This document shows, piece by piece, positions 10,287-60,788 of a stretch of 64,000 bases of DNA; within the stretch, counting starts at the first letter, position 1; each line of letters opens with the position of its first letter. The position numbers and the translations under genes are program-made. Origin of the DNA: Naegleria gruberi (lineage: Eukaryota); assembly GCA_000004985.1 (NCBI GenBank), contig GG738922.1. One strand, given 5' to 3'. The notes beneath the pieces are model-generated. The model ran no database searches, was not told the origin of the DNA, and was given only the letters and a program-made list of their open reading frames with translations.

Positions 10287-13200
10287 ATGTCTAAAGAGAA
10301 CGATGACTTGGACTTTCTTGCCGATGACTATGATCAACCATCACAGTCCCCAAGAACAACATCAACCCGTCGATTATCTACAAGACCTCGTGTCGTCCTC
10401 AAGAAAACCTCCAATTCATCATCAAATTCGACAAGTGGCAGAAGAGACAGCATCAACTCTAATGATGAATTAACTTTAGATCAAATACAATCACCACCTT
10501 CTTCTTCATCATCAGCTACTACTTCACCACAATCAATTTCCTCTCCTCCAGAGCCAACATCAATCAACCCAACAAGAAGTGGCAGCAGTAAAATAATAAT
10601 TGGCTCCAAGATACAAAAACCAATCAATAACAATAATTCAACAACAACAAACAAACCAAGTCTCATTACTGAAAGCTCCAGTAAAGTTCAAACTAAAAAG
10701 TTTATGAGTAATTTATTGAAAAGTGTTCAGACCACACAAAATAATTCATCTCAACCTTCCTCTCCAACCAATGAATCTCAACAACAACAACAATTGAATG
10801 GATCTGGTGGAGTTGCTACTGCTACTACTGCCAATGCTAATAATTCCGAAGGTATTGTTATTGATGAAGCAGAAGAGAAGAGAAGAGATTTTGATGAATT
10901 GATGATGAAATCCTCAAAGAGACAACAACAACAATTATTCAGTGATAATGATAAGAAACAAATTACATTGGATAAACTTGAGAGTTTGATGCAAACATTG
11001 GATAGACATGATAGAGTGCCACTGTTGGATGAAAATATTAATATTGTTGATTTGTATAGTAGTGATCCATCTCAGATTGATGCAAAACAGGGAATTATCA
11101 AATCAAATCCTCCACTCTTTCAGAAACATGATCAACCATTAGATATTGACTTGTTTGAGGAGATTACAAGTTTCAGTACCATTCAGAGAAGATATCTTTC
11201 ACAAGATGAAATGGTTAAAGGTGATTTCAAGACAAGTCATGAATTCCAATTGAAACCAACTGTTGGAAATTTATCAAGTGCAGTTGATGAAGTGAGAGAA
11301 TTTGTAAAGAAAGAGAAGGAACGTCATCAAATCATGATGGGTGGTGAAGAAAAATCAACACAAAATGAATCTTCTTCATCTCTAACTGGTGGTGGTGTGC
11401 CTGGAGCCAGTTCTTCCTCATCTGATTTGAAATCAAATTTAGAAAAACAAGTTGAACATGAATCACATATGGAAAAAGCTAAGAAAATTTTCAGAAAGAT
11501 TGAATATCGACATGTTTTCAAAGATTTAGTTAATAGATTGGTTATGGAAAAGATTGGTATTCCTACAATTTTACGTGTCAATTCAAAATTTATTGCAGTT
11601 GGTACATCGAATGGTCTCATTGTTTTATATCACAGAAAGACTGAAAATCGTTTGGCAATTTTGGGTTCCATTCAAAATGAAGAAATTACAAATTTGAGTG
11701 GTGGAAAAGTTGTTAGACCTATTCAAGTTACTGCTCTCGATTTTGGTTCTAAAATGACATTACCTTATGAAGAGTTTAGTGCCAAATCAGAACAAGATTT
11801 ATTAATGTTATATTATAGAATTTCAACTGATCAAGATGATTATACTGTTAATGCTACAACTGGAGGTGATAAGCAACAAGATGAAGAAAATATTGAAGTA
11901 TTGAGTCAAACTTCACGTGTACTTGTCAGTGGTCATTCAGATGGTTCTATTAACATTTGGAATTTATCAACATTTAAACCTGTCAAACCACTTAAGGGAT
12001 ATTTCACAAAACCTGTTCAGAAAATTGTAAATTTACACAAAACTAGCAAGCAATATAATGCCATTGAATTTTTGGCAGTTGATACAAGTGGTAGAATGAA
12101 ACTTTTCAATGTGAGAAAGATTATGTTTGCTTACTATGTTGATGTTCAACCTATTTTATGGGCAAACATTCCAAAAGAAATGACTTCCTTCAAGTCAACC
12201 AATAATTTAGAAAGTGAAAATGGTGAATCCAATTCTTCTCAATTAATTGCTAGTAGTATGACTCCAGAACAACAATTAAAGATGAAAGAATTAGAAAAGA
12301 GACAACAACAAGAAAAGATTCTTTCCACCTTTTCAGAATTCCAAGTATTACCAAAATCAGAGGGTAGACATCCATTGGATAGATTTGTTTTGGCTGCTGT
12401 TGCTACTGAAAGTGAAGTTACCATTCACTCTGTTAAGCCATCAAGTAGACAAATTGCAACACTTTACAATAATAGTGTTTTAGATATGGCTAGTGGTGCT
12501 GCTTCATCTGCAGGTTCATTCATGAGAAAGAAGATTACTCCAAAGATTGCATGGAAAGCAAGTCAAATGGTTGATGGTGATCATAGAGGATTAACTGTTT
12601 CTCTCAATGATCAAACTAATCCTTATTTGGCAGTTGCTTGGGGCAACAGAATTGCATTCTATCATGTTGAAGTTCAACAACCTTCATCCTTCTTTAATTT
12701 CATGTTTGGAGGTAATTCTAACAGTGCTTCAACCAATGGTCAAGCTAACATCAATGGAACACAAAATGGTTCTTCTCAAAATGGTAATTCAAATGCCAAT
12801 ACACCAAATGGATCATCAAATATGAATGTTAATATGGGAGGAAGTGATTTGCCAAATATTTACTTTGCTTCTGAAATGTTTGTTCCATTCAATATTGAAC
12901 ATATTCACTGGTTGACTGACGATTTATTCATCGTATTGGACTCCAAACAAAGCAAGATGCTATTGATTGATAGAAAATTGGAAAGCTCAACCAATTGGAT
13001 AGAAGAAGTTAATTGTAAAGATTTAATGTTGGACTATATCTCTGATCCAATGATGAACATTCCAAATAATTTGAAAAAGAAATATGGTTTACAATATGGT
13101 GGTGGTTTTACAAGAGGTAGCTTTGATGTTTCTGCATTCCAATATATTGAAATCTTACGTCACTCTTCAATTACTCCACAAAGCTTGAAGCATTCCATGT

Positions 13201-16200
13201 ATAATTCTTCAGATAGTGATGATACTGTCAGTATTCCAAGTACAACTCACTCATTTGCATCCGAAATGTATAGAGCTAGCTATGGAGGTGGTGGCATTGT
13301 TACTGTCAAACATCGTAGTCCAACTATTTACATGTTGGGCGCTTCCGAGTTGAGAGCTATGCGTTGCTTGTCTTGGGATGAAAGAGTTGTTGCTCTTCAA
13401 ACTATTGGAGAGTATGAAGAAGCTTTGAATATGTCTGTTGAAATGTTCAACGATCCAACCTCTATTGGTGCTCTTGTTGGGCTTCCAAACAAGGAAGAAA
13501 TTCAAAGACATCAAGCTGTTAGTGCACTCATTTCTTCTATCCTTGTTGATTACAGAGATACAAAATTGCATCAACTTCAACTTGATAATGGTTTAACTCA
13601 TCAAAAAGTGGAAAGTTTAGTTCAAGTTGCCAGAAATTGTTTACAAAGAGCAATTGAAATTAACGATATTGAATTGATTGAAGGAACTTTCATGTCTTTT
13701 GAACATTATGGTTGCGAACACATTTTCTTCCAATTGTTGGTTGAAGAGCTTATTTTGAACGGTGCCCTATCAAGAATGATGACAATTGACTCTAAGAAAG
13801 CTTCATATGACTTTATTCAATCTCAATTCATGAAGATCAAGGATTTGTACACATCAGATGCTGATCCAGAGAAGGGTGAAAAGGGGTTGATTGATCTTTC
13901 AAGATATATCAAGTATCACAACAATATTGATAACGAAATAGCATACGATTCCAGTTCAATTCATCCACTTTCTCCAAAGGTCAGATTCGAAAGACTCGAA
14001 AGTATTATTCTCAATCTGGATATTTCCAAATTGCAAATTGAATATGAAATTTTCTTGGAATTGAATGAAAAGTGCAAGAGATACAACTTGTACAGAATGC
14101 ATATTTATTCAAACTGTGTATTGAACTCTGATTTCATCACACCAGTTAGAGATTATTTGGAAGACATTACAATCTCTGATTTGTCTACTGTTGAAACAAA
14201 GGAAAAGGCAGATGCAATTTTGGAATACTTTAAGAATATCGTCACAAAGGGAACAATCTTTACTGATGCTTATCACATTACCGATGTTGAAGTATTGAAG
14301 AAGGTTAAACGTTTGATTGTTGACTTTTTGTTTGAACAAACAAGAGTTGTCAGAATGTCGTCTAACTCACAAGAAAAACACAAGAATAATGGAATTGCTA
14401 TGTTGAATTTGGAAAAATTGATCAAGTACAATCCAAAGGAAACATTTGATGTATTGAAATTATACTTTGAAGAAATTGCTGTCGAAGGATCAACTGTTAC
14501 CTCACCATTTTATACCACATTCCCAAGACCAATCAAGAACCCACTTACAAAGGAAGAAAAGGGAAGTATTTTGGAAGAATTTATTGTTACATCCTTTGCT
14601 GATTGTGTCAATGAGGGAACTGGTTCCAACATGTCACTTCGTAAATGGGTTCCAAAGTTGAACCGTGAAGAATTGATTGAGGCAATGAAGAGTTACATTC
14701 TTGATCCTCCACAAGGTGAATTAGATATTGAAATTGATAGTCCAACCTTCACATTGAGAGAAAAGAAATACTTGTACGAATTTTTGGGAGAAATGATTGC
14801 CAGAAATATTTTGGCAGAAGACAAGGGTCAAATTAAGAGAATTTACACTCACTTGTGTCATGACAATGTATTTACCTCTGATGAAACCAAAGAGTTGCTG
14901 AAACAATTCAAGGAGCACGAAAAGGCATCCACTGAAACAAAGAAGGGTAAATCACTCCACTTGACAGAACAAGCAAGACAAGAAAGTGTTGAAAGAATTA
15001 TGAAGCAAACATCATATCTCAATGAGAGAAAGGAATATTTGATCAAAGAATATGATTTCAAACGTCACAGACAAAATATTTTGATGAAAATTCTTGAAAA
15101 ACTTGAAAGTTCCAATGAGCAAACCATCTCAACTATTCTTGTTCGTTTGATTGACTATGCCCAAGAAAATAACTGTTATCAAGCTGCTGTATATTTGAAT
15201 AGAAAGAAGAAAGATTACAAAGCTGTTATTAAGAATTATATTGATGATCTCAAATTGAAGAAAGCAATCGGTCATAGTCAACTTGACACACCTGTATTCA
15301 GTTATATTTCTGAATTGGCAAATGATTCTGAAGTTATTACTATTAGTATTCATGATGCTATTTTGGACCATTTCCTTGATTTGATGAAAGCTGACAGTGA
15401 AGAAATGACATTACTCATTGTGAAATACTTCCCAACTCTCCATCCTCAAGTTTTGAATACTCTCATCACTTCAAGCATCAAACACATTGAAGATGAAAGA
15501 CTCTTATTCAATTACTTGTCAAAGATTATTAATATTTATGAAGGAAATAATGATTTGATTGACGTTAAGGCCAACACTAGTTCTAGTACAATGTCTCAAT
15601 TCTTTACAAGCATGACAAGAACAAAGATTGATGTTGATATGGAATTACAATATCAATACATTAGATTATTATGTAAATTTGAACCACACAAAGTTTGTGA
15701 TTGGTTACAAACTCATCAATTCCCAGGTGAGAAGGCAGAAGAAATTTTAGAATATTGTAGAAATATTCCAGATGCTGTTAGTTTCCTCCTTGAAAGAAAT
15801 GGTGAAGTTATGGAAGCTCTTAACATTGTTTTGAAGAATATTTCAAGAGAAACAAGTATTTTGGAAGAAACTCTTTCGAATATTTCTAAAAAGTTTGATC
15901 CAGAAAATATTAGATTCTCCAAATATAGACATGTTAAAGATATCAAAGAGAGAACAAGACTTCAAAAGGGTGTTACTTATACAGATGCTGAAGAACAAGC
16001 AGAACAAAAGGGTATCAAATTCTTTAATGTAGAACGTATTCTTGGTTTGGTTGACTTGGAAGAAATTCCACTTGATGTCTATTTGGAAGCAAGAAGAAAA
16101 GTCTTAGATGGACGTGGATTACTTCCAAATACTTCTAATGTAGATAAGGATGATGCTAGTGTACACTCAGTAAATCCTCTCCATTATGGTTTGGATGAGG

Positions 16201-17624
16201 AATTCATTGGACGTGGATCAATCTTCCTCCAAGTTGAAGATTTGCCAGAATCTAAAAAGATTCGTAAGGAATTAGCTGTTGCTATTTCAATGTGTAAGAG
16301 AAATACTACAAGAAAGACAGTTGATGAAAAGCAAGTCAAGCAATTGTGGTTCAAATTATTGGATCAATTCAATCTTCCATTCAGTGAATATTTCAAATCT
16401 TACAAACTTGGTATTGAAGATTCATCAGTTTCAATGAAGAGAGATGATGAAGGTGGTGAAGGAGAAAGACTTCAAGCCAATGAAGAAACCGATGTTGAAC
16501 AATTGAAATCCAAGATTGAAAAAACCAGAGAAGCAAGAAAAACAAAGGAAAATGAATTGCTTGAAAAGGAAAAGGAGCTCTCTGAATGTGTCGATGAAGA
16601 AGAAAGAAAGGGACTTCAAAAGACGGTTGAAAATTCAAAGAAATATATTGCTCAGCAGATTAAGAAAGAAAAAACAATTCAAAAGCAAATTCAAGACATT
16701 CGTGATAAGAGCAAGATGGAAAAGGAGAAATCTAATCAAATGCACAATTTAGCCAAGTTGTGGCTCCAATTATTGGAATTCAAATTATTGAGAGTTGTTG
16801 TCTTGTCAGCTATTGGCAGTTTACCAATTCCTGAAATTTTGAAGAAATTAACCAAGGAAAATGCCAAATCAGATTTCTCAATGTACAGACAAATTTTACT
16901 TCATTTACTTGACAAGTACAAGTATGATTTGAAATTGTTACAAAATGCCAACAATGTGGTTGAGGAAGACACTTTCACATTGAGCAAGAAATTCACTGAC
17001 AGATTAATGAGAGGATTATGTCCAACCGTTCCAAAATGTATGCTCACTGATACATTACTTACACCTGAAGTAGATGACAATGAAGATGAAGAAAAGACCA
17101 ACTCAAAGAAGGGAAGAAGAGAAAAGAAGTTTGATGTTATCAGATTATTTGATACTGGATATGGTTATAGATTATCTGCTCTTGGTAATGTGACACGTTG
17201 TCCAACTACAACCACCTCTGTAAAGAAGAAGAAATTCGAAGTTGAAAAGACAAAATCAATTACAGAAGTTAAAAAGATCACTAACGAATTGTCAAGACTT
17301 TCACAAGTTGAATCTCAAGTCAAGAAGAAGCCAACTATGAAACTTTACAGAACTGCTCTCAAGGAATCTCAAATGGTTCGTTCTTCTACAAAGAAAGCTG
17401 GATCACTCGATTTGGTGTTCAGTGGACTTGACAGACCATTACTTCCTCCTATTGCCGAAGAGTTGACCAATATGGTTCCTAATTTGTTTACTACCACAAC
17501 ATCTAGAGATATTTCTGCTTCCAATGTTGAGACTAATGTTGAAAATTCAATCGTTTTTGAAGGAAGATATGTTTCACAAGAACAAATTATTGACTCTTTA
17601 CTTGACAATGCCATTCAATTCTAA
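10287..17624 (+). CDS. giant (2445 aa) WD40-repeat protein, Vps8-like (CORVET/HOPS class), with S/N/Q-rich and coiled-coil insertions
   Basis: Single 7.3-kb ORF from an ATG with A-rich leader. WD40-like segments (FIAVGTSNGLIVLYHRKTENRLAILG, LVSGHSDGSINIWNL) resemble the Vps8 N-terminal propeller. A long alpha-solenoid-like central region and a C-terminal K/E coiled coil follow. No RING finger seen. Family assignment is from remembered motifs, not a search. Confidence 0.5.
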   Translation: MSKENDDLDFLADDYDQPSQSPRTTSTRRLSTRPRVVLKKTSNSSSNSTSGRRDSINSNDELTLDQIQSPPSSSSSATTSPQSISSPPEPTSINPTRSGSSKIIIGSKIQKPINNNNSTTTNKPSLITESSSKVQTKKFMSNLLKSVQTTQNNSSQPSSPTNESQQQQQLNGSGGVATATTANANNSEGIVIDEAEEKRRDFDELMMKSSKRQQQQLFSDNDKKQITLDKLESLMQTLDRHDRVPLLDENINIVDLYSSDPSQIDAKQGIIKSNPPLFQKHDQPLDIDLFEEITSFSTIQRRYLSQDEMVKGDFKTSHEFQLKPTVGNLSSAVDEVREFVKKEKERHQIMMGGEEKSTQNESSSSLTGGGVPGASSSSSDLKSNLEKQVEHESHMEKAKKIFRKIEYRHVFKDLVNRLVMEKIGIPTILRVNSKFIAVGTSNGLIVLYHRKTENRLAILGSIQNEEITNLSGGKVVRPIQVTALDFGSKMTLPYEEFSAKSEQDLLMLYYRISTDQDDYTVNATTGGDKQQDEENIEVLSQTSRVLVSGHSDGSINIWNLSTFKPVKPLKGYFTKPVQKIVNLHKTSKQYNAIEFLAVDTSGRMKLFNVRKIMFAYYVDVQPILWANIPKEMTSFKSTNNLESENGESNSSQLIASSMTPEQQLKMKELEKRQQQEKILSTFSEFQVLPKSEGRHPLDRFVLAAVATESEVTIHSVKPSSRQIATLYNNSVLDMASGAASSAGSFMRKKITPKIAWKASQMVDGDHRGLTVSLNDQTNPYLAVAWGNRIAFYHVEVQQPSSFFNFMFGGNSNSASTNGQANINGTQNGSSQNGNSNANTPNGSSNMNVNMGGSDLPNIYFASEMFVPFNIEHIHWLTDDLFIVLDSKQSKMLLIDRKLESSTNWIEEVNCKDLMLDYISDPMMNIPNNLKKKYGLQYGGGFTRGSFDVSAFQYIEILRHSSITPQSLKHSMYNSSDSDDTVSIPSTTHSFASEMYRASYGGGGIVTVKHRSPTIYMLGASELRAMRCLSWDERVVALQTIGEYEEALNMSVEMFNDPTSIGALVGLPNKEEIQRHQAVSALISSILVDYRDTKLHQLQLDNGLTHQKVESLVQVARNCLQRAIEINDIELIEGTFMSFEHYGCEHIFFQLLVEELILNGALSRMMTIDSKKASYDFIQSQFMKIKDLYTSDADPEKGEKGLIDLSRYIKYHNNIDNEIAYDSSSIHPLSPKVRFERLESIILNLDISKLQIEYEIFLELNEKCKRYNLYRMHIYSNCVLNSDFITPVRDYLEDITISDLSTVETKEKADAILEYFKNIVTKGTIFTDAYHITDVEVLKKVKRLIVDFLFEQTRVVRMSSNSQEKHKNNGIAMLNLEKLIKYNPKETFDVLKLYFEEIAVEGSTVTSPFYTTFPRPIKNPLTKEEKGSILEEFIVTSFADCVNEGTGSNMSLRKWVPKLNREELIEAMKSYILDPPQGELDIEIDSPTFTLREKKYLYEFLGEMIARNILAEDKGQIKRIYTHLCHDNVFTSDETKELLKQFKEHEKASTETKKGKSLHLTEQARQESVERIMKQTSYLNERKEYLIKEYDFKRHRQNILMKILEKLESSNEQTISTILVRLIDYAQENNCYQAAVYLNRKKKDYKAVIKNYIDDLKLKKAIGHSQLDTPVFSYISELANDSEVITISIHDAILDHFLDLMKADSEEMTLLIVKYFPTLHPQVLNTLITSSIKHIEDERLLFNYLSKIINIYEGNNDLIDVKANTSSSTMSQFFTSMTRTKIDVDMELQYQYIRLLCKFEPHKVCDWLQTHQFPGEKAEEILEYCRNIPDAVSFLLERNGEVMEALNIVLKNISRETSILEETLSNISKKFDPENIRFSKYRHVKDIKERTRLQKGVTYTDAEEQAEQKGIKFFNVERILGLVDLEEIPLDVYLEARRKVLDGRGLLPNTSNVDKDDASVHSVNPLHYGLDEEFIGRGSIFLQVEDLPESKKIRKELAVAISMCKRNTTRKTVDEKQVKQLWFKLLDQFNLPFSEYFKSYKLGIEDSSVSMKRDDEGGEGERLQANEETDVEQLKSKIEKTREARKTKENELLEKEKELSECVDEEERKGLQKTVENSKKYIAQQIKKEKTIQKQIQDIRDKSKMEKEKSNQMHNLAKLWLQLLEFKLLRVVVLSAIGSLPIPEILKKLTKENAKSDFSMYRQILLHLLDKYKYDLKLLQNANNVVEEDTFTLSKKFTDRLMRGLCPTVPKCMLTDTLLTPEVDDNEDEEKTNSKKGRREKKFDVIRLFDTGYGYRLSALGNVTRCPTTTTSVKKKKFEVEKTKSITEVKKITNELSRLSQVESQVKKKPTMKLYRTALKESQMVRSSTKKAGSLDLVFSGLDRPLLPPIAEELTNMVPNLFTTTTSRDISASNVETNVENSIVFEGRYVSQEQIIDSLLDNAIQF

Positions 17625-17661
17625 AATAATATTCAAAAATTGTAAAACAAACATAAACATC

Positions 17662-20039
17662 TTAATTTTTAATAGAAGTAATGAGTTTTGTAAGAGTTTT
17701 GTTTGCAAATCTGAAAAGTGATAGAGCAAATGGATGTAAGAATTCATTCTCATTGTCGTTAACTGGAATTTTCAAAAGTCCACTCTCGGCATGGTAATAT
17801 TGTTTTGTTCTATCAGTAATTCTTTTCATTAATTCTTCTGCATCAACCCAAGAAAGATCAACCTTTTCAGTAAAAGGAACAGAGCTATCAATTATTGATC
17901 TTTCTTGAATTTCTTCGCTGGTAAGATACTCGAGCTCAGTAATAAATAAATTATACTTTCCATTTTCGAAATAATATCCCTCGGAGGTTGACAATTTGTC
18001 ATAAATGTTGCCAAAAGCAGCCTTCGTTTCTTCGTAAAATTCTCTTGCAGCTGTTTCTGCAGAGTTGGTATCAGCCTTTTCCCTCTTTCCACCGAATTCT
18101 GACCATGTAAACATTTGCTTGGCAATCTTGTATGGACTCAAACCTTTCTCAAAATTGATATTAGGATTTACATCGCCCTTTCCTCCTCTATTTTCTTTTC
18201 CAAGAAGGAAATAAACTTTTCCTTGGTGGATAGAATATGCAATAACACCTGCTGACTTATAATTTTGTTCAACTACAGGATCTCTTTCAATAATATCAGT
18301 ACTTTCTTGATTGGCTGCAATATCATAATGTGGTGAGTAGACTGGTTGAGTTGGATAGAATGAAGGATAATAACTGTAATAATTTGGCATTGGTGGATAA
18401 TATCCTGCAGCTGGAGCATAAACATTATGTTCTCCTGGTATAACTTCAACATAGTATGGGTAATAATAGACAGGTGGTTCTGGTTGATATGGATATCCAT
18501 AAACTGGTTGTGGAACATTCTCATGTTCAACATAGTTTTCTTCATTTTGATAGTTGGAACCTTGTTTAAACATTTTTGTCAAATTTCTTTGACGGGATTG
18601 TAAAATCTGCTTGATAAATTCATCTGAGGAATTAGCATTATCTATTCTCTCTTTATGATCGCAATCTCTACATTGAATAGTGAAAAATGTAAAATCATCT
18701 AAACGTTCAATTAATTGTTCTTCTTGATATTCTGTCAACTCATCAACATTATTATCATCTTTGAATTCTTGTAATATTCTTTGTTGTTGATCATGATCCA
18801 CAACTATTGGATTGGTTGTCTTGATCGACTTACAACTTGGACATACCATGTAATTTGAAATATATGATTGTAAAACTTGATCAATTAGTTTTGACATTTG
18901 ATTTTCTTCGTTCATAGAGATGGTTCCTCCATTCAATGTTTTAACTTTTACATCTTTTTCTTCATATTTTCCATTATTTTCTGTGAGTTCCTTTTTAACT
19001 TCAGAAATATGTTCATGAAGAATATATCCAATTTCATCATTTACATCAAAAAAGCATGTCTTTTCTGTTTTGAATCCGATATATTTCATAAGATCTTTGA
19101 AATTCAAATAAATATAAAATTATTATGAAACAACTTACATTGAGCTCTTCTATTCATTAAATTGGCAATTTCTGCCATATTAATAATTGATGTCTTTTTC
19201 ATTGTCAACTCTTGTTCAGCCTGACCCTCGGAATCTAAACACTTGTATTTTACAACTTGTGAAAAGTTTACAGTAGAAACTTTTGACCTAATCTTCTTTA
19301 ATAATTGTCTATGTGTTGGAGATTTAGACTCCTGATTATTAACATGAATTTCCTTGTTTGTAGATAATGTACCCTTCTTCTTTCTATCGACGAAATTTTG
19401 TTGTTGTTGACCAGCAGTACTTCCTCTCAATGATCCAGCCTTTGAATTGGTACCACCCACTATTGTAGTAGTAGAATTGTATTGATTATTCTTTGAGGTA
19501 GAAGATGATGATGATGAAACAGAGGAGGAACGTGATGTTGATTGTTGCTTATTTTTTTTGGAGGCTTGTTTTTGATTGTTATTGTTGTTGTTGTTGGTGT
19601 GATGATTGGAAGAAGAAGAGGCTGATGCTGATGAATGGTTATTTGATGATTTGTTATTGTTGTTGTTATTACCATTTGAAGGATGGTTAGATCCCTTTGA
19701 ATGATGAGCAGCATGATTAGTATTGTTGCCATTGTTATTACTTCTTGTGGATAATGGAAGTGAAGAGTTATTGATTGAATCATTGTGTGGTTGTTGTTGT
19801 TGATCGGCAGCAGTAACACTTCCATTATTGTGATGATTGTGCATCGCTATTGATGAACCATTGTTGTTGCTATTATTGTTAACACTGGAAGTAGCAGTCG
19901 TAGTGGTTGTGGTAGATAATGATGAAGAGGAGGACTTGTTTTTTCTCTTACGTCTATTCTTCTTTGAAGGACTTGTTGCTCCTCCATTGGTAGAAGAATT
20001 AGAATCAATACTTGTAGTAGATGTTGATGATTGTAACAT
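17662..20039 (-). CDS. eIF5/eIF2-beta-type zinc-ribbon (eIF2B_5) domain protein fused to a C-terminal Nudix-like domain, with a 300-aa S/N-rich N-terminal tract; 2 exons (19139..20039, 17662..19094), intron 19095..19138
   Basis: Track ORFs 19104..20039 and 17662..19107 join through a 44-nt GTAAGT..ttcaaag intron in phase 1. The spliced sequence KKTSIINMAEIANLMNRRAQYLMKYIGFKTEKTCFFDVNDE..YMVCPSCKSIKTTNPIVVD..FTIQCRDCDHKE parallels the eIF5 N-terminal domain ([61 protein letters not shown]). It is followed by a Y/P-rich linker (YGYPYQPEPPVYYYPYY..) and GVIAYSIHQGKVYFLLGKE..FGGKREKADTNSAETAAREFYEETKAAFG, resembling a Nudix fold with a degenerate Nudix box. Confidence 0.55.
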
Positions 20040-36886: not shown

Positions 36887-36957
36887 GGGGGCGAGGGGGA
36901 ATCGAACCCCCGGCCACAGCTTTGGAGGCTGCGATGTTACCATTACACCACCGCCCC
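36887..36957 (-). tRNA. tRNA-Trp (anticodon CCA)
   Basis: The minus strand reads GGGGCGG TG GTGT AATGGTA ACAT C GCAGC CTCCAAA GCTGT GGCC GGGGG TTCGATT CCCCC TCGCCCC C. Cloverleaf with 7-bp acceptor, D and T arms, and anticodon loop CU-CCA-AA. A T7 run lies about 15 nt downstream. Confidence 0.85.
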
Positions 36958-60715: not shown

Positions 60716-60788
60716 GCCCGTCTAGCTCAGTCGGTAGAGCGCAAGGCTCTTAACCTTGTGGTCGTGGGTTCGACCCCCACGGTGGGCG
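60716..60788 (+). tRNA. tRNA-Lys (anticodon CUU)
   Basis: GCCCGTCTAGCTCAGTCGGTAGAGCGCAAGGCTCTTAACCTTGTGGTCGTGGGTTCGACCCCCACGGTGGGCG is near-identical in architecture to eukaryotic tRNA-Lys-CTT. 7-bp acceptor, anticodon loop CU-CUU-AA, TTCGA T-loop. Confidence 0.9.

What the first reader, a model, noticed from the sequence alone, without database searches (positions are those of the whole stretch)
17662..20039. Single-ORF fusion of an eIF5/eIF2-beta-type zinc-ribbon domain with a Nudix-like domain
The eIF2B_5 domain (N-terminal domain of eIF5/eIF2-beta, with C4 zinc ribbon) is normally followed by a W2/HEAT domain (eIF5) or nothing (eIF2-beta). Here, after a 44-nt spliceosomal intron that joins two track ORFs, it is followed in the same frame by a Tyr/Pro-rich linker and a domain with Nudix-fold hallmarks (beta-strand GVIAYSIHQGKVYFLLGKE, then GGKRE...REFYEETKA). 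It is preceded by a 300-aa Ser/Asn-rich tract. A Nudix hydrolase (decapping or nucleotide-sanitising chemistry) tethered to a start-codon-recognition/eIF2-binding module would be a new architecture. It could act as a translation-coupled decapping or NAD-cap surveillance factor. The degenerate Nudix box could mean a non-catalytic binder.
Basis: partly seen in the sequence, partly recalled or inferred. Interest (0 to 1): 0.7.

Follow-up and report, generated by a model that had tools for sequence, protein, structure and literature searches.

The report
eIF5-like domain fused to Nudix hydrolase
This Naegleria gruberi gene really does encode one protein that joins a divergent copy of the start-codon factor eIF5's N-terminal zinc-ribbon domain to a Nudix hydrolase whose closest relatives are giant-virus enzymes; the fusion is conserved across heterolobosean amoebae, has not been studied, and may be an mRNA-cap-cleaving enzyme.

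Summary
On the minus strand, 20039..17662, two ORFs are joined by a 44-nt GTAAGT..AG intron (19138..19095) into a 777-aa protein. The layout is a Ser/Asn-rich tail, an eIF5-NTD-like domain with a C4 zinc ribbon, a Tyr/Pro-rich linker and a Nudix domain. Both domains pass Pfam thresholds, and both are confirmed by confident AlphaFold models and fold searches.

The fusion does not depend on the intron. The zinc ribbon, linker and Nudix domain lie in one uninterrupted 481-codon ORF. Orthologues in Willaertia magna and in a metagenomic heterolobosean carry the whole protein in a single exon. The intron position and phase recur in at least five other taxa.

The architecture occurs in N. fowleri, N. 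lovaniensis, Willaertia and Acrasis, and in nothing else among 1.84 billion representative proteins.

The Nudix domain keeps the metal-binding REFxEE. It belongs specifically with the uncharacterised mimivirus L534-like Nudix family (hhalign 99.8%). In giant viruses that family sits near XRN exonuclease and eIF4E genes.

Function is inferred, not shown. The most likely role is an RNA-cap or cap-like pyrophosphohydrolase targeted by the eIF5-like module. The eIF5 loop that contacts initiator tRNA is not conserved, so strict mimicry of eIF5 at the ribosomal P site is doubtful. I found no literature on this protein.

The parts
17662..20039 (-). Whole coding region of the eIF5N-Nudix gene (777 aa; start ATG at 20039..20037, stop codon at 17664..17662)
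19139..20039 (-). Exon 1 (901 nt; aa 1-300 plus the first base of Tyr301)
   Evidence: The ATG at 20039 is the first start after an in-frame stop.
19095..19138 (-). Spliceosomal intron, 44 nt, GTAAGT...AG, phase 1
   Evidence: The same position and phase occur in L002 (37-nt intron). The same 'Q-C-K' read-through signature appears in P0127, P0128 and P0133. The intron is absent in Willaertia and P0131.
17662..19094 (-). Exon 2 (aa 301-777 plus stop). It holds the rest of the eIF5-like domain, the zinc ribbon, the linker and the Nudix domain in one uninterrupted frame.
19290..20039 (-). Ser/Asn/Thr-rich, poorly conserved N-terminal tract (aa 1-250) with three Lys/Arg clusters
18562..19310 (-). 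eIF5-NTD-like domain (aa 244-478; the nucleotide range includes the intron). It is an alpha/beta subdomain plus a C4 zinc ribbon plus a C-terminal helix.
   Evidence: Pfam PF01873. PDB phmmer hits to eIF5. AF2 model of the N. lovaniensis orthologue, pLDDT 85.6. Foldseek top hits are eIF5-NTD chains. Alignment A8.
18832..18843 (-). Zinc knuckle 1, CPSC (aa 385-388)
   Evidence: Invariant Cys columns
18661..18672 (-). Zinc knuckle 2, CRDC (aa 442-445), separated from knuckle 1 by a helical insert of about 53 aa specific to Naegleria and Willaertia
18322..18519 (-). Tyr/Pro-rich low-complexity linker (aa 493-558; 27% Tyr, 24% Pro)
   Evidence: The composition is conserved in all orthologues.
17665..18261 (-). 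Nudix domain (aa 579-777), L534-like subfamily
18013..18093 (-). Nudix box region GGKREKADTNSAETAAREFYEETKAAF (aa 635-661); REFYEE = aa 651-656 (18028..18045)

Best explanation
SHOWN. A single, ancient, cellular gene of Heterolobosea (here Naegleria gruberi) encodes a modular protein. Its parts are a disordered Ser/Asn-rich N-terminus, a divergent eIF5-N-terminal-domain fold with an intact C4 zinc ribbon, a Tyr/Pro-rich disordered linker, and a C-terminal Nudix-fold domain with the metal-binding REFxEE motif preserved. The Nudix domain belongs to the same subfamily as the uncharacterised 'L534-like' Nudix proteins of Mimiviridae.

INFERRED. The Nudix domain is an active Mg/Mn-dependent pyrophosphohydrolase. 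Its most likely substrate is the 5' cap, or a cap-like dinucleotide end, of RNA. The eIF5-like module serves as the targeting adaptor and takes the place of the regulatory or RNA-binding N-terminal domains of Dcp2 and g5R. It would bring the enzyme to eIF2 or initiation-complex components, or to RNA itself. The Tyr/Pro linker may add RNP-granule partitioning.

Rough probabilities: single-gene fusion about 0.97; catalytically active hydrolase about 0.65; RNA cap as physiological substrate about 0.35; binding to eIF2 or the 40S in an eIF5-like way about 0.2-0.25.
For: Architecture:
- Both Pfam domains score above threshold.
- The eIF5 alignment crosses the splice junction.
- The ribbon, linker and Nudix domain share one 481-codon ORF.
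- Single-exon full-length orthologues exist in Willaertia (L001 6001-8355) and in metagenomic P0131.
- The intron is conserved in position and phase.
- Synteny with Vps8 holds in both Naegleria and Willaertia.
- About 10 orthologues share the same domain order.

Folds:
- Nudix model pLDDT 92.5, with Nudix hits only.
- eIF5-like model pLDDT 85.6, with eIF5-NTD chains from 48S complexes as top hits, then eIF2beta/aIF2beta.

Catalytic competence:
- R81, E82 and E86 are invariant and E85 is present in 9 of 10 sequences.
- In the related L375, mutating the first Glu of EX2EE abolishes decapping (PMC8478210).

Cap-related substrate:
- A mixed heterolobosean plus viral profile has ASFV g5R as its best PDB hit (E = 0.004).
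- The sister viral family lies within about 7 kb of an XRN 5'-3' exonuclease, a helicase and often an eIF4E-like gene in four mimivirid genomes.

Context: Discoba lack Dcp1, Pat1 and Edc1-4, and further divergent decapping components are expected in Heterolobosea (PMC10415143).

eIF5-like conservation: NRxxxYxxK[YF]xG, the K33 and K55 equivalents, a basic residue at the R15 position, and four Cys.
Against: - No biochemical or expression data were available.
- With heterolobosean sequences alone, or viral sequences alone, no decapping enzyme reaches significance in PDB sequence searches.
- The structural neighbours also include CoA, ADP-ribose and Ap4A hydrolases at equal scores, so the substrate cannot be read from the fold.
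- The Nudix-box Glu (E of GX5E) is replaced (Thr here; Asp one position upstream is invariant), and the final Gly is Lys here.
- One orthologue has REFTHE.
- The eIF5 beta-hairpin-1 G-x-G-N-G loop packs against the initiator tRNA anticodon stem-loop and tolerates no larger residues (PMC6298780). In this family it is replaced by a longer, variable, acidic or Asn-rich loop.
- The arginine finger R15 is Lys in Naegleria and Willaertia.
- No W2/HEAT domain is present.
- Naegleria already has a bona fide Dcp2.
- Viral synteny in mimivirids is broadly conserved, so the neighbourhood is only weak evidence of function.
Confidence: 0.45

Rival explanations
1. The Nudix domain is an active hydrolase for a small-molecule nucleotide (for example ADP-ribose, CoA, Ap4A or m7GDP/m7GTP clean-up) rather than for RNA ends. 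The eIF5-like zinc-ribbon module is just a protein- or nucleic-acid-binding appendage with no link to translation initiation.
For: CoA pyrophosphatases (AtNUDT11, DR CoA PPase, NUDT7), the NrtR ADP-ribose-binding domain and Ap4A hydrolase score as well as Dcp2, g5R and X29. The only PDB sequence hit of the heterolobosean-only profile is AtNUDT11, at E = 1. The tRNA-contacting loop of eIF5 is not conserved.
Against: The CoA-type UPF0035 motif was not seen in Pfam or profile hits. The fusion to a translation-factor fold, the Tyr-rich linker, and the viral sisters' proximity to XRN and eIF4E fit RNA better.
Confidence: 0.25
2. The Nudix domain is a non-catalytic binder (a pseudo-enzyme like NUDT16L1/Syndesmos or NrtR). 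It recognises a nucleotide or cap and passes that signal to the eIF5-like module.
For: The Nudix box is off consensus: one-residue insertion, E to T/P/K/V at the GX5E Glu, and G to K/G/E/A at the final GU. The Pfam score is barely above cut-off here and below it in orthologues. NrtR is the top Foldseek hit. One orthologue has REFTHE.
Against: R-E-x-x-E-E is invariant or nearly so across about 10 divergent orthologues and 43 viral relatives. Pseudo-Nudix proteins usually lose it. A conserved Asp sits one residue before the missing Glu.
Confidence: 0.15
3. The protein is the lineage's functional eIF5 (the GAP for eIF2), or a dominant eIF5/eIF1 competitor at the 40S P site, with the Nudix domain replacing the W2/HEAT domain.
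For: The best structural and sequence matches are eIF5-NTD, ahead of eIF2beta. The K33 and K55 equivalents and a basic residue at the R15 position are conserved; that residue is Arg in P0130 and P0131.
Against: It scores only about 28-30 bits against human and yeast eIF5. R15 is Lys in Naegleria and Willaertia. The hairpin-1 Gly-rich loop needed to fit against the tRNAi ASL is replaced by a long variable loop. No W2 domain is present. Whether N. gruberi has a canonical eIF5 elsewhere was not testable here.
Confidence: 0.05
4. The 'fusion' is an artefact: two adjacent genes, a mis-assembly, or a recent giant-virus insertion rather than a host gene.
For: The closest relatives of the Nudix domain are mimivirid proteins. 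The spliced product is not in the protein collection for N. gruberi.
Against: The open frame runs continuously through the ribbon, linker and Nudix domain. Single-exon full-length orthologues exist. A spliceosomal intron is conserved. Synteny with Vps8 is conserved between genera. GC content matches the flanks. The gene is present in Naegleria, Willaertia and Acrasis.
Confidence: 0.02

Closest known systems
eIF5 N-terminal (GAP) domain, Pfam PF01873 eIF-5_eIF-2B (for example yeast eIF5 in 6fyx/8s8j, human eIF5 2e9h/8oz0)
   Same: Same alpha/beta plus C4 zinc-ribbon fold (Foldseek E = 1e-5, TM about 0.6 on the target). Shared features are the NRxxxYxxKYxGF core motif, the K33 and K55 equivalents, a basic residue at the Arg15 position, and four Cys.
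   Different: No W2/HEAT C-terminal domain. Arg15 is Lys in Naegleria and Willaertia. The Gly-rich beta-hairpin 1 that contacts tRNAi is replaced by a long variable loop. There is an insert of about 40 aa after the sheet and an insert of about 30 aa (relative to eIF5) inside the ribbon, which makes a spacer of about 53 aa between the two Cys pairs. Profile scores are only 28-30 bits, and no canonical eIF5 reaches E <= 0.001 in the 1.84-billion-protein search.
Mimivirus L534-like Nudix proteins (Tupanvirus, Moumouvirus, Megavirus, Mimivirus qu_564 and Cotonvirus 'hydrolase/nudix hydrolase', about 280-320 aa)
   Same: These are the only non-heterolobosean hits of the single-sequence search. hhalign gives 99.8%, E = 2e-29, over 142 columns. 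Shared motifs are [CY]KSAG[IV][IL]PY, FLL, W(S/N)(E/D)FGGK, TAAREFxEET..F, and KxY at the strand after the helix.
   Different: The viral proteins stand alone, with an unrelated low-complexity N-terminus (KTLSIPI and SKSW motifs). They have an extra insert of about 60 aa after the Nudix helix and a different C-terminus (FHKRLQIT), and they keep the Nudix-box Glu. Their function is unknown: the L375 paper states that L534 resembles no known decapping enzyme (PMC8478210). That P0073 corresponds to L534 is inferred from its genome position, its length and its lack of the L375 N-terminus. It was not checked by accession.
Nudix mRNA/snoRNA decapping enzymes: Dcp2, ASFV g5R, Xenopus X29/NUDT16, Mimivirus L375
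   Different: There is no Box A/NRD (no PF05026 hit) and no g5R helical domain. No significant sequence link appears when heterolobosean or viral sequences are used alone. Naegleria has its own Dcp2.
Giant-virus standalone eIF5/eIF2beta-like proteins (P0134 at 135 aa, on a contig with an NCLDV capsid gene; P0135 at 132 aa, whose 4.5-kb contig shows no viral marker)
   Same: These are the best-scoring non-family matches to the eIF5-like profile: 38.7 and 36.0 bits, against 29.9 and 27.8 for human and yeast eIF5.
   Different: They are short and unfused, have no inserts, and sit next to no Nudix gene. The margin over canonical eIF5 is small.

Membership tests
Pfam eIF-5_eIF-2B domain (PF01873) | HMM score above the gathering threshold (27 bits) | tested here: met
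   39.3 bits, E = 6.7e-10, two stretches. Orthologues score 39.1 and 48.7 bits.
Pfam eIF-5_eIF-2B domain (PF01873) | Alpha/beta subdomain followed by a C4 zinc ribbon | tested here: met
   The AF2 model of the N. lovaniensis orthologue (61-66% identical) matches eIF5-NTD, eIF2beta and aIF2beta chains. The four Cys are invariant.
eIF5 proper (GTPase-activating protein of eIF2) | C-terminal W2/HEAT domain (PF02020) | tested here: not met
   No W2 hit at E <= 10. The C-terminus is a Nudix domain.
eIF5 proper (GTPase-activating protein of eIF2) | Arginine finger Arg15 in the F-Y-R-Y-K motif | tested here: not met
   The window has V-K-Y-K, with Lys at that column. It is Arg only in P0130 and P0131. 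The role of Arg15 is taken from PMC6298780.
eIF5 proper (GTPase-activating protein of eIF2) | Short Gly-rich beta-hairpin 1 (G27, G29, N30, G31) that packs on the tRNAi anticodon stem-loop | tested here: not met
   It is replaced by a longer, length-variable, acidic or Asn-rich loop (A8 columns about 30-66; the requirement is).
eIF2-beta | N-terminal Lys-boxes plus an eIF2gamma-binding helix before the core domain | tested here: inconclusive
   Three Lys/Arg clusters lie in the low-complexity N-terminus. They are not alignable, and eIF2beta scores lower than eIF5. The gamma-binding helix was not identified.
Nudix superfamily (PF00293) | Nudix alpha/beta/alpha fold | tested here: met
Nudix superfamily (PF00293) | HMM score above the gathering threshold (21.1 bits) | tested here: met
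   21.6 bits in the window protein, which is marginal. Orthologues score 18.8 and 12.6 bits, below the threshold.
Nudix superfamily (PF00293) | Full Nudix box GX5EX7REUXEEXGU | tested here: inconclusive
   REFYEE is present and conserved. G-to-E spacing is one residue longer, the Glu is replaced by Thr (with an invariant Asp one position upstream), and the final Gly is Lys.
Dcp2 family | N-terminal regulatory domain / Box A (PF05026) preceding the Nudix domain | tested here: not met
   No PF05026 hit. N. fowleri has a separate Dcp2 with Box A.
Dcp2 family | m7GpppN-RNA decapping activity releasing m7GDP | not testable with these tools
   This needs a biochemical assay.
Mimivirus L534-like Nudix subfamily | Specific profile-profile homology and shared motifs beyond the generic Nudix box | tested here: met
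   hhalign gives 99.8%, E = 2e-29. Single-sequence hits are E = 6e-5 and 1.9e-4 in a database of 5.8 billion sequences. Shared motifs are seen.

The most novel reading that the evidence does not exclude
Heterolobosea lack Dcp1, Pat1 and Edc activators. They may use this protein as a lineage-specific decapping or cap-surveillance enzyme coupled to translation initiation. The eIF5-derived module would dock on eIF2 or the 43S/48S complex, so that the Nudix domain removes the cap of mRNAs engaged in, or failing, start-codon selection. Both modules have been exchanged with giant viruses. That would also assign a cap-directed function to the uncharacterised mimivirus L534 family, which sits beside the viral XRN and eIF4E genes.
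Probability: 0.12. Interest if true: 0.85.

Novelty: new variant of a known kind. Interest (0 to 1): 0.62.

Why it matters
The two activities involved, recognition of the initiation complex and Nudix pyrophosphohydrolysis, are normally carried by separate proteins. A conserved covalent link between them suggests a direct connection between translation initiation and cleavage of the 5' end of mRNA.

This occurs in a eukaryotic lineage whose decapping machinery is acknowledged to be incomplete (PMC10415143). Naegleria fowleri is a lethal human pathogen and carries the orthologue XP_044568536, so a lineage-specific enzyme with no human counterpart also has practical interest.

The specific kinship with the giant-virus L534 family gives a first functional handle on that family. 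It also provides a case of host-virus gene exchange involving a translation-related protein.

Tried and rejected
1. Sequence link to a characterised decapping enzyme. The g5R hit (E = 0.004) appears only with a mixed heterolobosean plus viral profile. It disappears with heterolobosean-only and viral-only profiles, so I do not count it as membership.

3. 'Rosetta-stone' adjacency in viruses. No Nudix ORF lies next to the eIF5-like genes on the NCLDV contig L004/L005 or the unassigned contig L007, and no eIF5-like ORF lies next to the viral Nudix genes.

4. A fused version in IMG/VR viral contigs. None was found with the family's own motifs. The eIF5-like alignment was too variable to scan with.

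5. More distant eIF5-like relatives through the word-indexed search. This returned only exon-1 fragments of the same family.

6. The N. gruberi gene model. The exact spliced product and the exon-2 ORF are not in the collection, and the contig is not on record. I cannot say whether the gene is annotated.

7. The organism behind GCA_016850925.1. It is not named in any searchable paper.

The N. lovaniensis orthologue was modelled instead.
Full report
**What is there.** The window is AT-rich eukaryotic DNA (about 33% GC). It comes from Naegleria gruberi: the neighbouring 2445-aa ORF is identical to XP_002669782.1 (NAEGRDRAFT_82025), a Vps8-like protein. The stretch 19138..19095 reads GTAAGTTGTTTCATAATAATTTTATATTTATTTGAATTTCAAAG, a 44-nt intron with canonical ends in phase 1. 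Removing it yields a 2334-nt CDS and a 777-aa protein in which '...NLMNRRAQ' is joined to 'YLMKYIGF...'.

**Are the domains real?** Pfam gives eIF-5_eIF-2B at 39.3 bits (cut-off 27) and NUDIX at 21.6 bits (cut-off 21.1). A phmmer search of the PDB finds only eIF5 and eIF2beta chains, and the alignment to yeast eIF5 runs uninterrupted across the splice junction (NRRAQYLMKYIGF against NRPAPYIVKYFGF). That is independent support for the intron.
- The spliced window sequence could not be submitted, so the eIF5-like domain was modelled on the N. lovaniensis orthologue, which is 61-66% identical. The model has pLDDT 85.6. Its best matches are eIF5-NTD chains from human and yeast 48S complexes, followed by eIF2beta and aIF2beta.

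**Is it one gene?**
- The fusion does not rest on the intron. The zinc ribbon, the Tyr/Pro linker and the whole Nudix domain lie in one uninterrupted 481-codon frame. Given the window's stop-codon frequency, this has P of about 1e-13.
- Orthologues with the same order of parts exist in N. lovaniensis (788 aa), N. fowleri (794 aa, XP_044568536), Willaertia magna (784 aa) and Acrasis kona (557 and 472 aa). They also occur in an unnamed assembly (GCA_016850925.1) and in several metagenomic heterolobosean-like contigs.
- In Willaertia the entire 784-aa protein is a single exon (L001 6001-8355) lying tail-to-tail with a Vps8 gene, exactly as in the window. The metagenomic P0131 (611 aa) is also a single ORF.
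- The intron sits at the same codon and phase in L002, where it is 37 nt. It leaves the same 'Q-C-K' read-through signature in three further fragments (P0127, P0128, P0133).
- This is therefore an old cellular gene. It is not two genes, a mis-assembly or a recent viral insertion.

**How widespread is it?** An exhaustive HMMER search of 1.84 billion representative proteins with the eIF5-like profile found only 11 proteins at E <= 0.001. Nine belong to this family: six hold both domains (two of those lack the N-terminal exon as called) and three are exon-1 fragments. The other two are standalone eIF5/eIF2beta-like proteins of about 135 aa. One of those two lies on a contig with an NCLDV major capsid gene. 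Every family member that carries an organism name is a heterolobosean; the rest come from unnamed assemblies and metagenomes. Canonical eIF5 scores only 28-30 bits against the family profile, compared with 36-39 bits for the two standalone proteins.

**The Nudix domain.**
- In the single-sequence search of 5.8 billion proteins, the only hits outside the family were two standalone Nudix proteins of about 300 aa.
- A profile search expanded these to 262 proteins. Nearly all the named ones are from Mimiviridae: Tupanvirus, Moumouvirus, Megavirus, Mimivirus and Cotonvirus. Two further named hits are labelled archaeal MAGs, which I did not check.
- The heterolobosean-only and viral-only profiles match each other at 99.8% probability, E = 2e-29. 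They share motifs well beyond the generic Nudix box.
- The Mimivirus member (P0073, 308 aa, at about 0.71 Mb) is not the characterised decapping enzyme L375. By position, length and N-terminus it corresponds to L534. The L375 paper describes L534 as uncharacterised and unlike known decapping enzymes (PMC8478210).
- In four mimivirid genomes the gene lies in a conserved block with a UvrD/AAA_30-type helicase, an XRN 5'-3' exoribonuclease and, in two of them, an eIF4E-like gene. This is suggestive context for mRNA 5'-end metabolism, but it is weak evidence.

**Catalytic potential.** Across ten heterolobosean orthologues, the R, the first E and the last E of REUxEE are invariant, and the middle E is present in nine (one orthologue has REFTHE). 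The same residues are invariant in 43 viral relatives. The upstream half of the box is off consensus. There is one extra residue between Gly and the Glu position. That Glu is replaced (Thr in N. gruberi), with an invariant Asp one position earlier. The terminal Gly is variable (Lys here). I read this as 'probably active, atypical loop', not as a dead enzyme.

**Substrate.** The substrate cannot be decided here.
- ASFV g5R is the best PDB sequence hit only for a mixed profile (E = 0.004). It is not a hit for either family alone.

**The eIF5-like domain.** It keeps the core NRxxxYxxK[YF]xG motif, the equivalents of eIF5 K33 and K55, a basic residue at the Arg15 position and the four zinc ligands. 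That basic residue is Lys in Naegleria and Willaertia and Arg in two metagenomic members. Three features argue against a faithful eIF5-like role:
- There is no W2 domain.
- The arginine finger is not Arg in Naegleria.
- The short Gly-rich beta-hairpin 1 is replaced by a longer, variable, acidic or Asn-rich loop. In eIF5 this hairpin packs against the initiator-tRNA anticodon stem and cannot accept larger residues (PMC6298780).

The family also has an insert of about 40 residues after the sheet and, in Naegleria and Willaertia, a helical insert between the zinc knuckles. I therefore treat the domain as an eIF5-derived adaptor with an unknown partner (eIF2 subunits, the 40S or RNA), not as a P-site mimic.

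**Most likely mechanism (inferred).** The protein is probably a Nudix pyrophosphohydrolase directed to its substrate by the eIF5-like module. This parallels the way Dcp2 and g5R use separate N-terminal domains. The RNA 5' cap or a cap-like end is the most probable substrate, at about 0.35. The Tyr/Pro-rich linker (27% Tyr, 24% Pro), whose composition is conserved in all orthologues, could promote partitioning into RNP condensates. That last point rests on general knowledge of Tyr-rich low-complexity regions and was not tested.

Background makes this attractive. Discoba lack Dcp1, Pat1 and Edc1-4, and further divergent decapping components are expected in Heterolobosea (PMC10415143). However, N. 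fowleri does have its own Dcp2 with Box A, so this protein would be an additional enzyme, not the only one.

**Novelty.** Full-text searches found no paper on this architecture. Orthologues are in public databases only as hypothetical or 'Nudix hydrolase domain-containing' proteins. The N. gruberi product itself is not in the protein collection, although its neighbour is, so it may be unannotated there; this could not be settled. I class the finding as a new variant of a known kind: a Nudix hydrolase with a previously undescribed targeting domain, restricted to one eukaryotic lineage, with giant-virus relatives for the catalytic domain.

**Verdict.** The function remains plausible but unproven. 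Interest is 0.62.

Noticed in passing
window 17662..20039 (and 10287..17624): The neighbouring Vps8-like ORF is exactly N. gruberi XP_002669782.1. However, neither the spliced 777-aa product nor its exon-2 ORF is in the 15-billion-protein collection, and no N. gruberi hit came back in the homology search. The gene may therefore be missing or mis-modelled in the N. gruberi annotation.
   Followed up: partly
L006 8001-8891, L009 10001-10891, L010 10001-10927, L011 10001-10927: In four mimivirid genomes the L534-like Nudix gene sits in a conserved block. The block holds a gene of about 506 aa with unknown function, an AAA_30/UvrD_C helicase and an XRN 5'-3' exoribonuclease. In two of the four genomes it also holds an eIF4E-like gene. 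This hints that the uncharacterised L534 family acts on mRNA 5' ends.
   Followed up: partly
L004 395-802 (P0134): A standalone 135-aa eIF5-NTD-like protein is encoded on a contig carrying an NCLDV major capsid gene. It scores higher against the heterolobosean eIF5-like profile (38.7 bits) than human or yeast eIF5 does (29.9 and 27.8 bits). Both modules of the Naegleria protein may therefore have giant-virus relatives. No Nudix gene is adjacent.
   Followed up: partly
window 19290..20039 (aa 1-250): The Ser/Asn-rich N-terminus contains three Lys/Arg clusters: KKNRRKRKNK at aa 26-35, KKNK near aa 164 and DRKKKG near aa 222. Similar clusters occur in the N. lovaniensis and Willaertia tails. They could be nuclear localisation signals or could be analogous to the eIF2beta K-boxes.
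   Followed up: no
window 17625..17661: Only 37 nt separate the stop codons of the convergent Vps8-like gene (stop ends at 17624) and the eIF5N-Nudix gene (stop at 17662-17664), so their 3' UTRs must overlap. The same tail-to-tail arrangement occurs in Willaertia, with 51 nt between the genes.
   Followed up: partly
window 24165..24283 (-): A full-length 5S rRNA gene (Rfam RF00001, 105 bits) lies between protein-coding genes.
   Followed up: no
window 36887..36957 (-) and 60716..60788 (+): tRNA-Trp(CCA) and tRNA-Lys(CTT) genes.
   Followed up: no
window 20355..23525 (-): The upstream neighbour is a 1056-aa protein with a NARG2_C (ICE2-like) domain (Pfam 50.2 bits).
   Followed up: no
L002 5583-7332; L008 6001-7836: The more distant orthologues share a different conserved neighbourhood (Plant_NMP1 and Ctr copper-transporter genes) and lack the long Ser/Asn N-terminal tract. 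The tract is therefore a Naegleria/Willaertia elaboration.
   Followed up: partly
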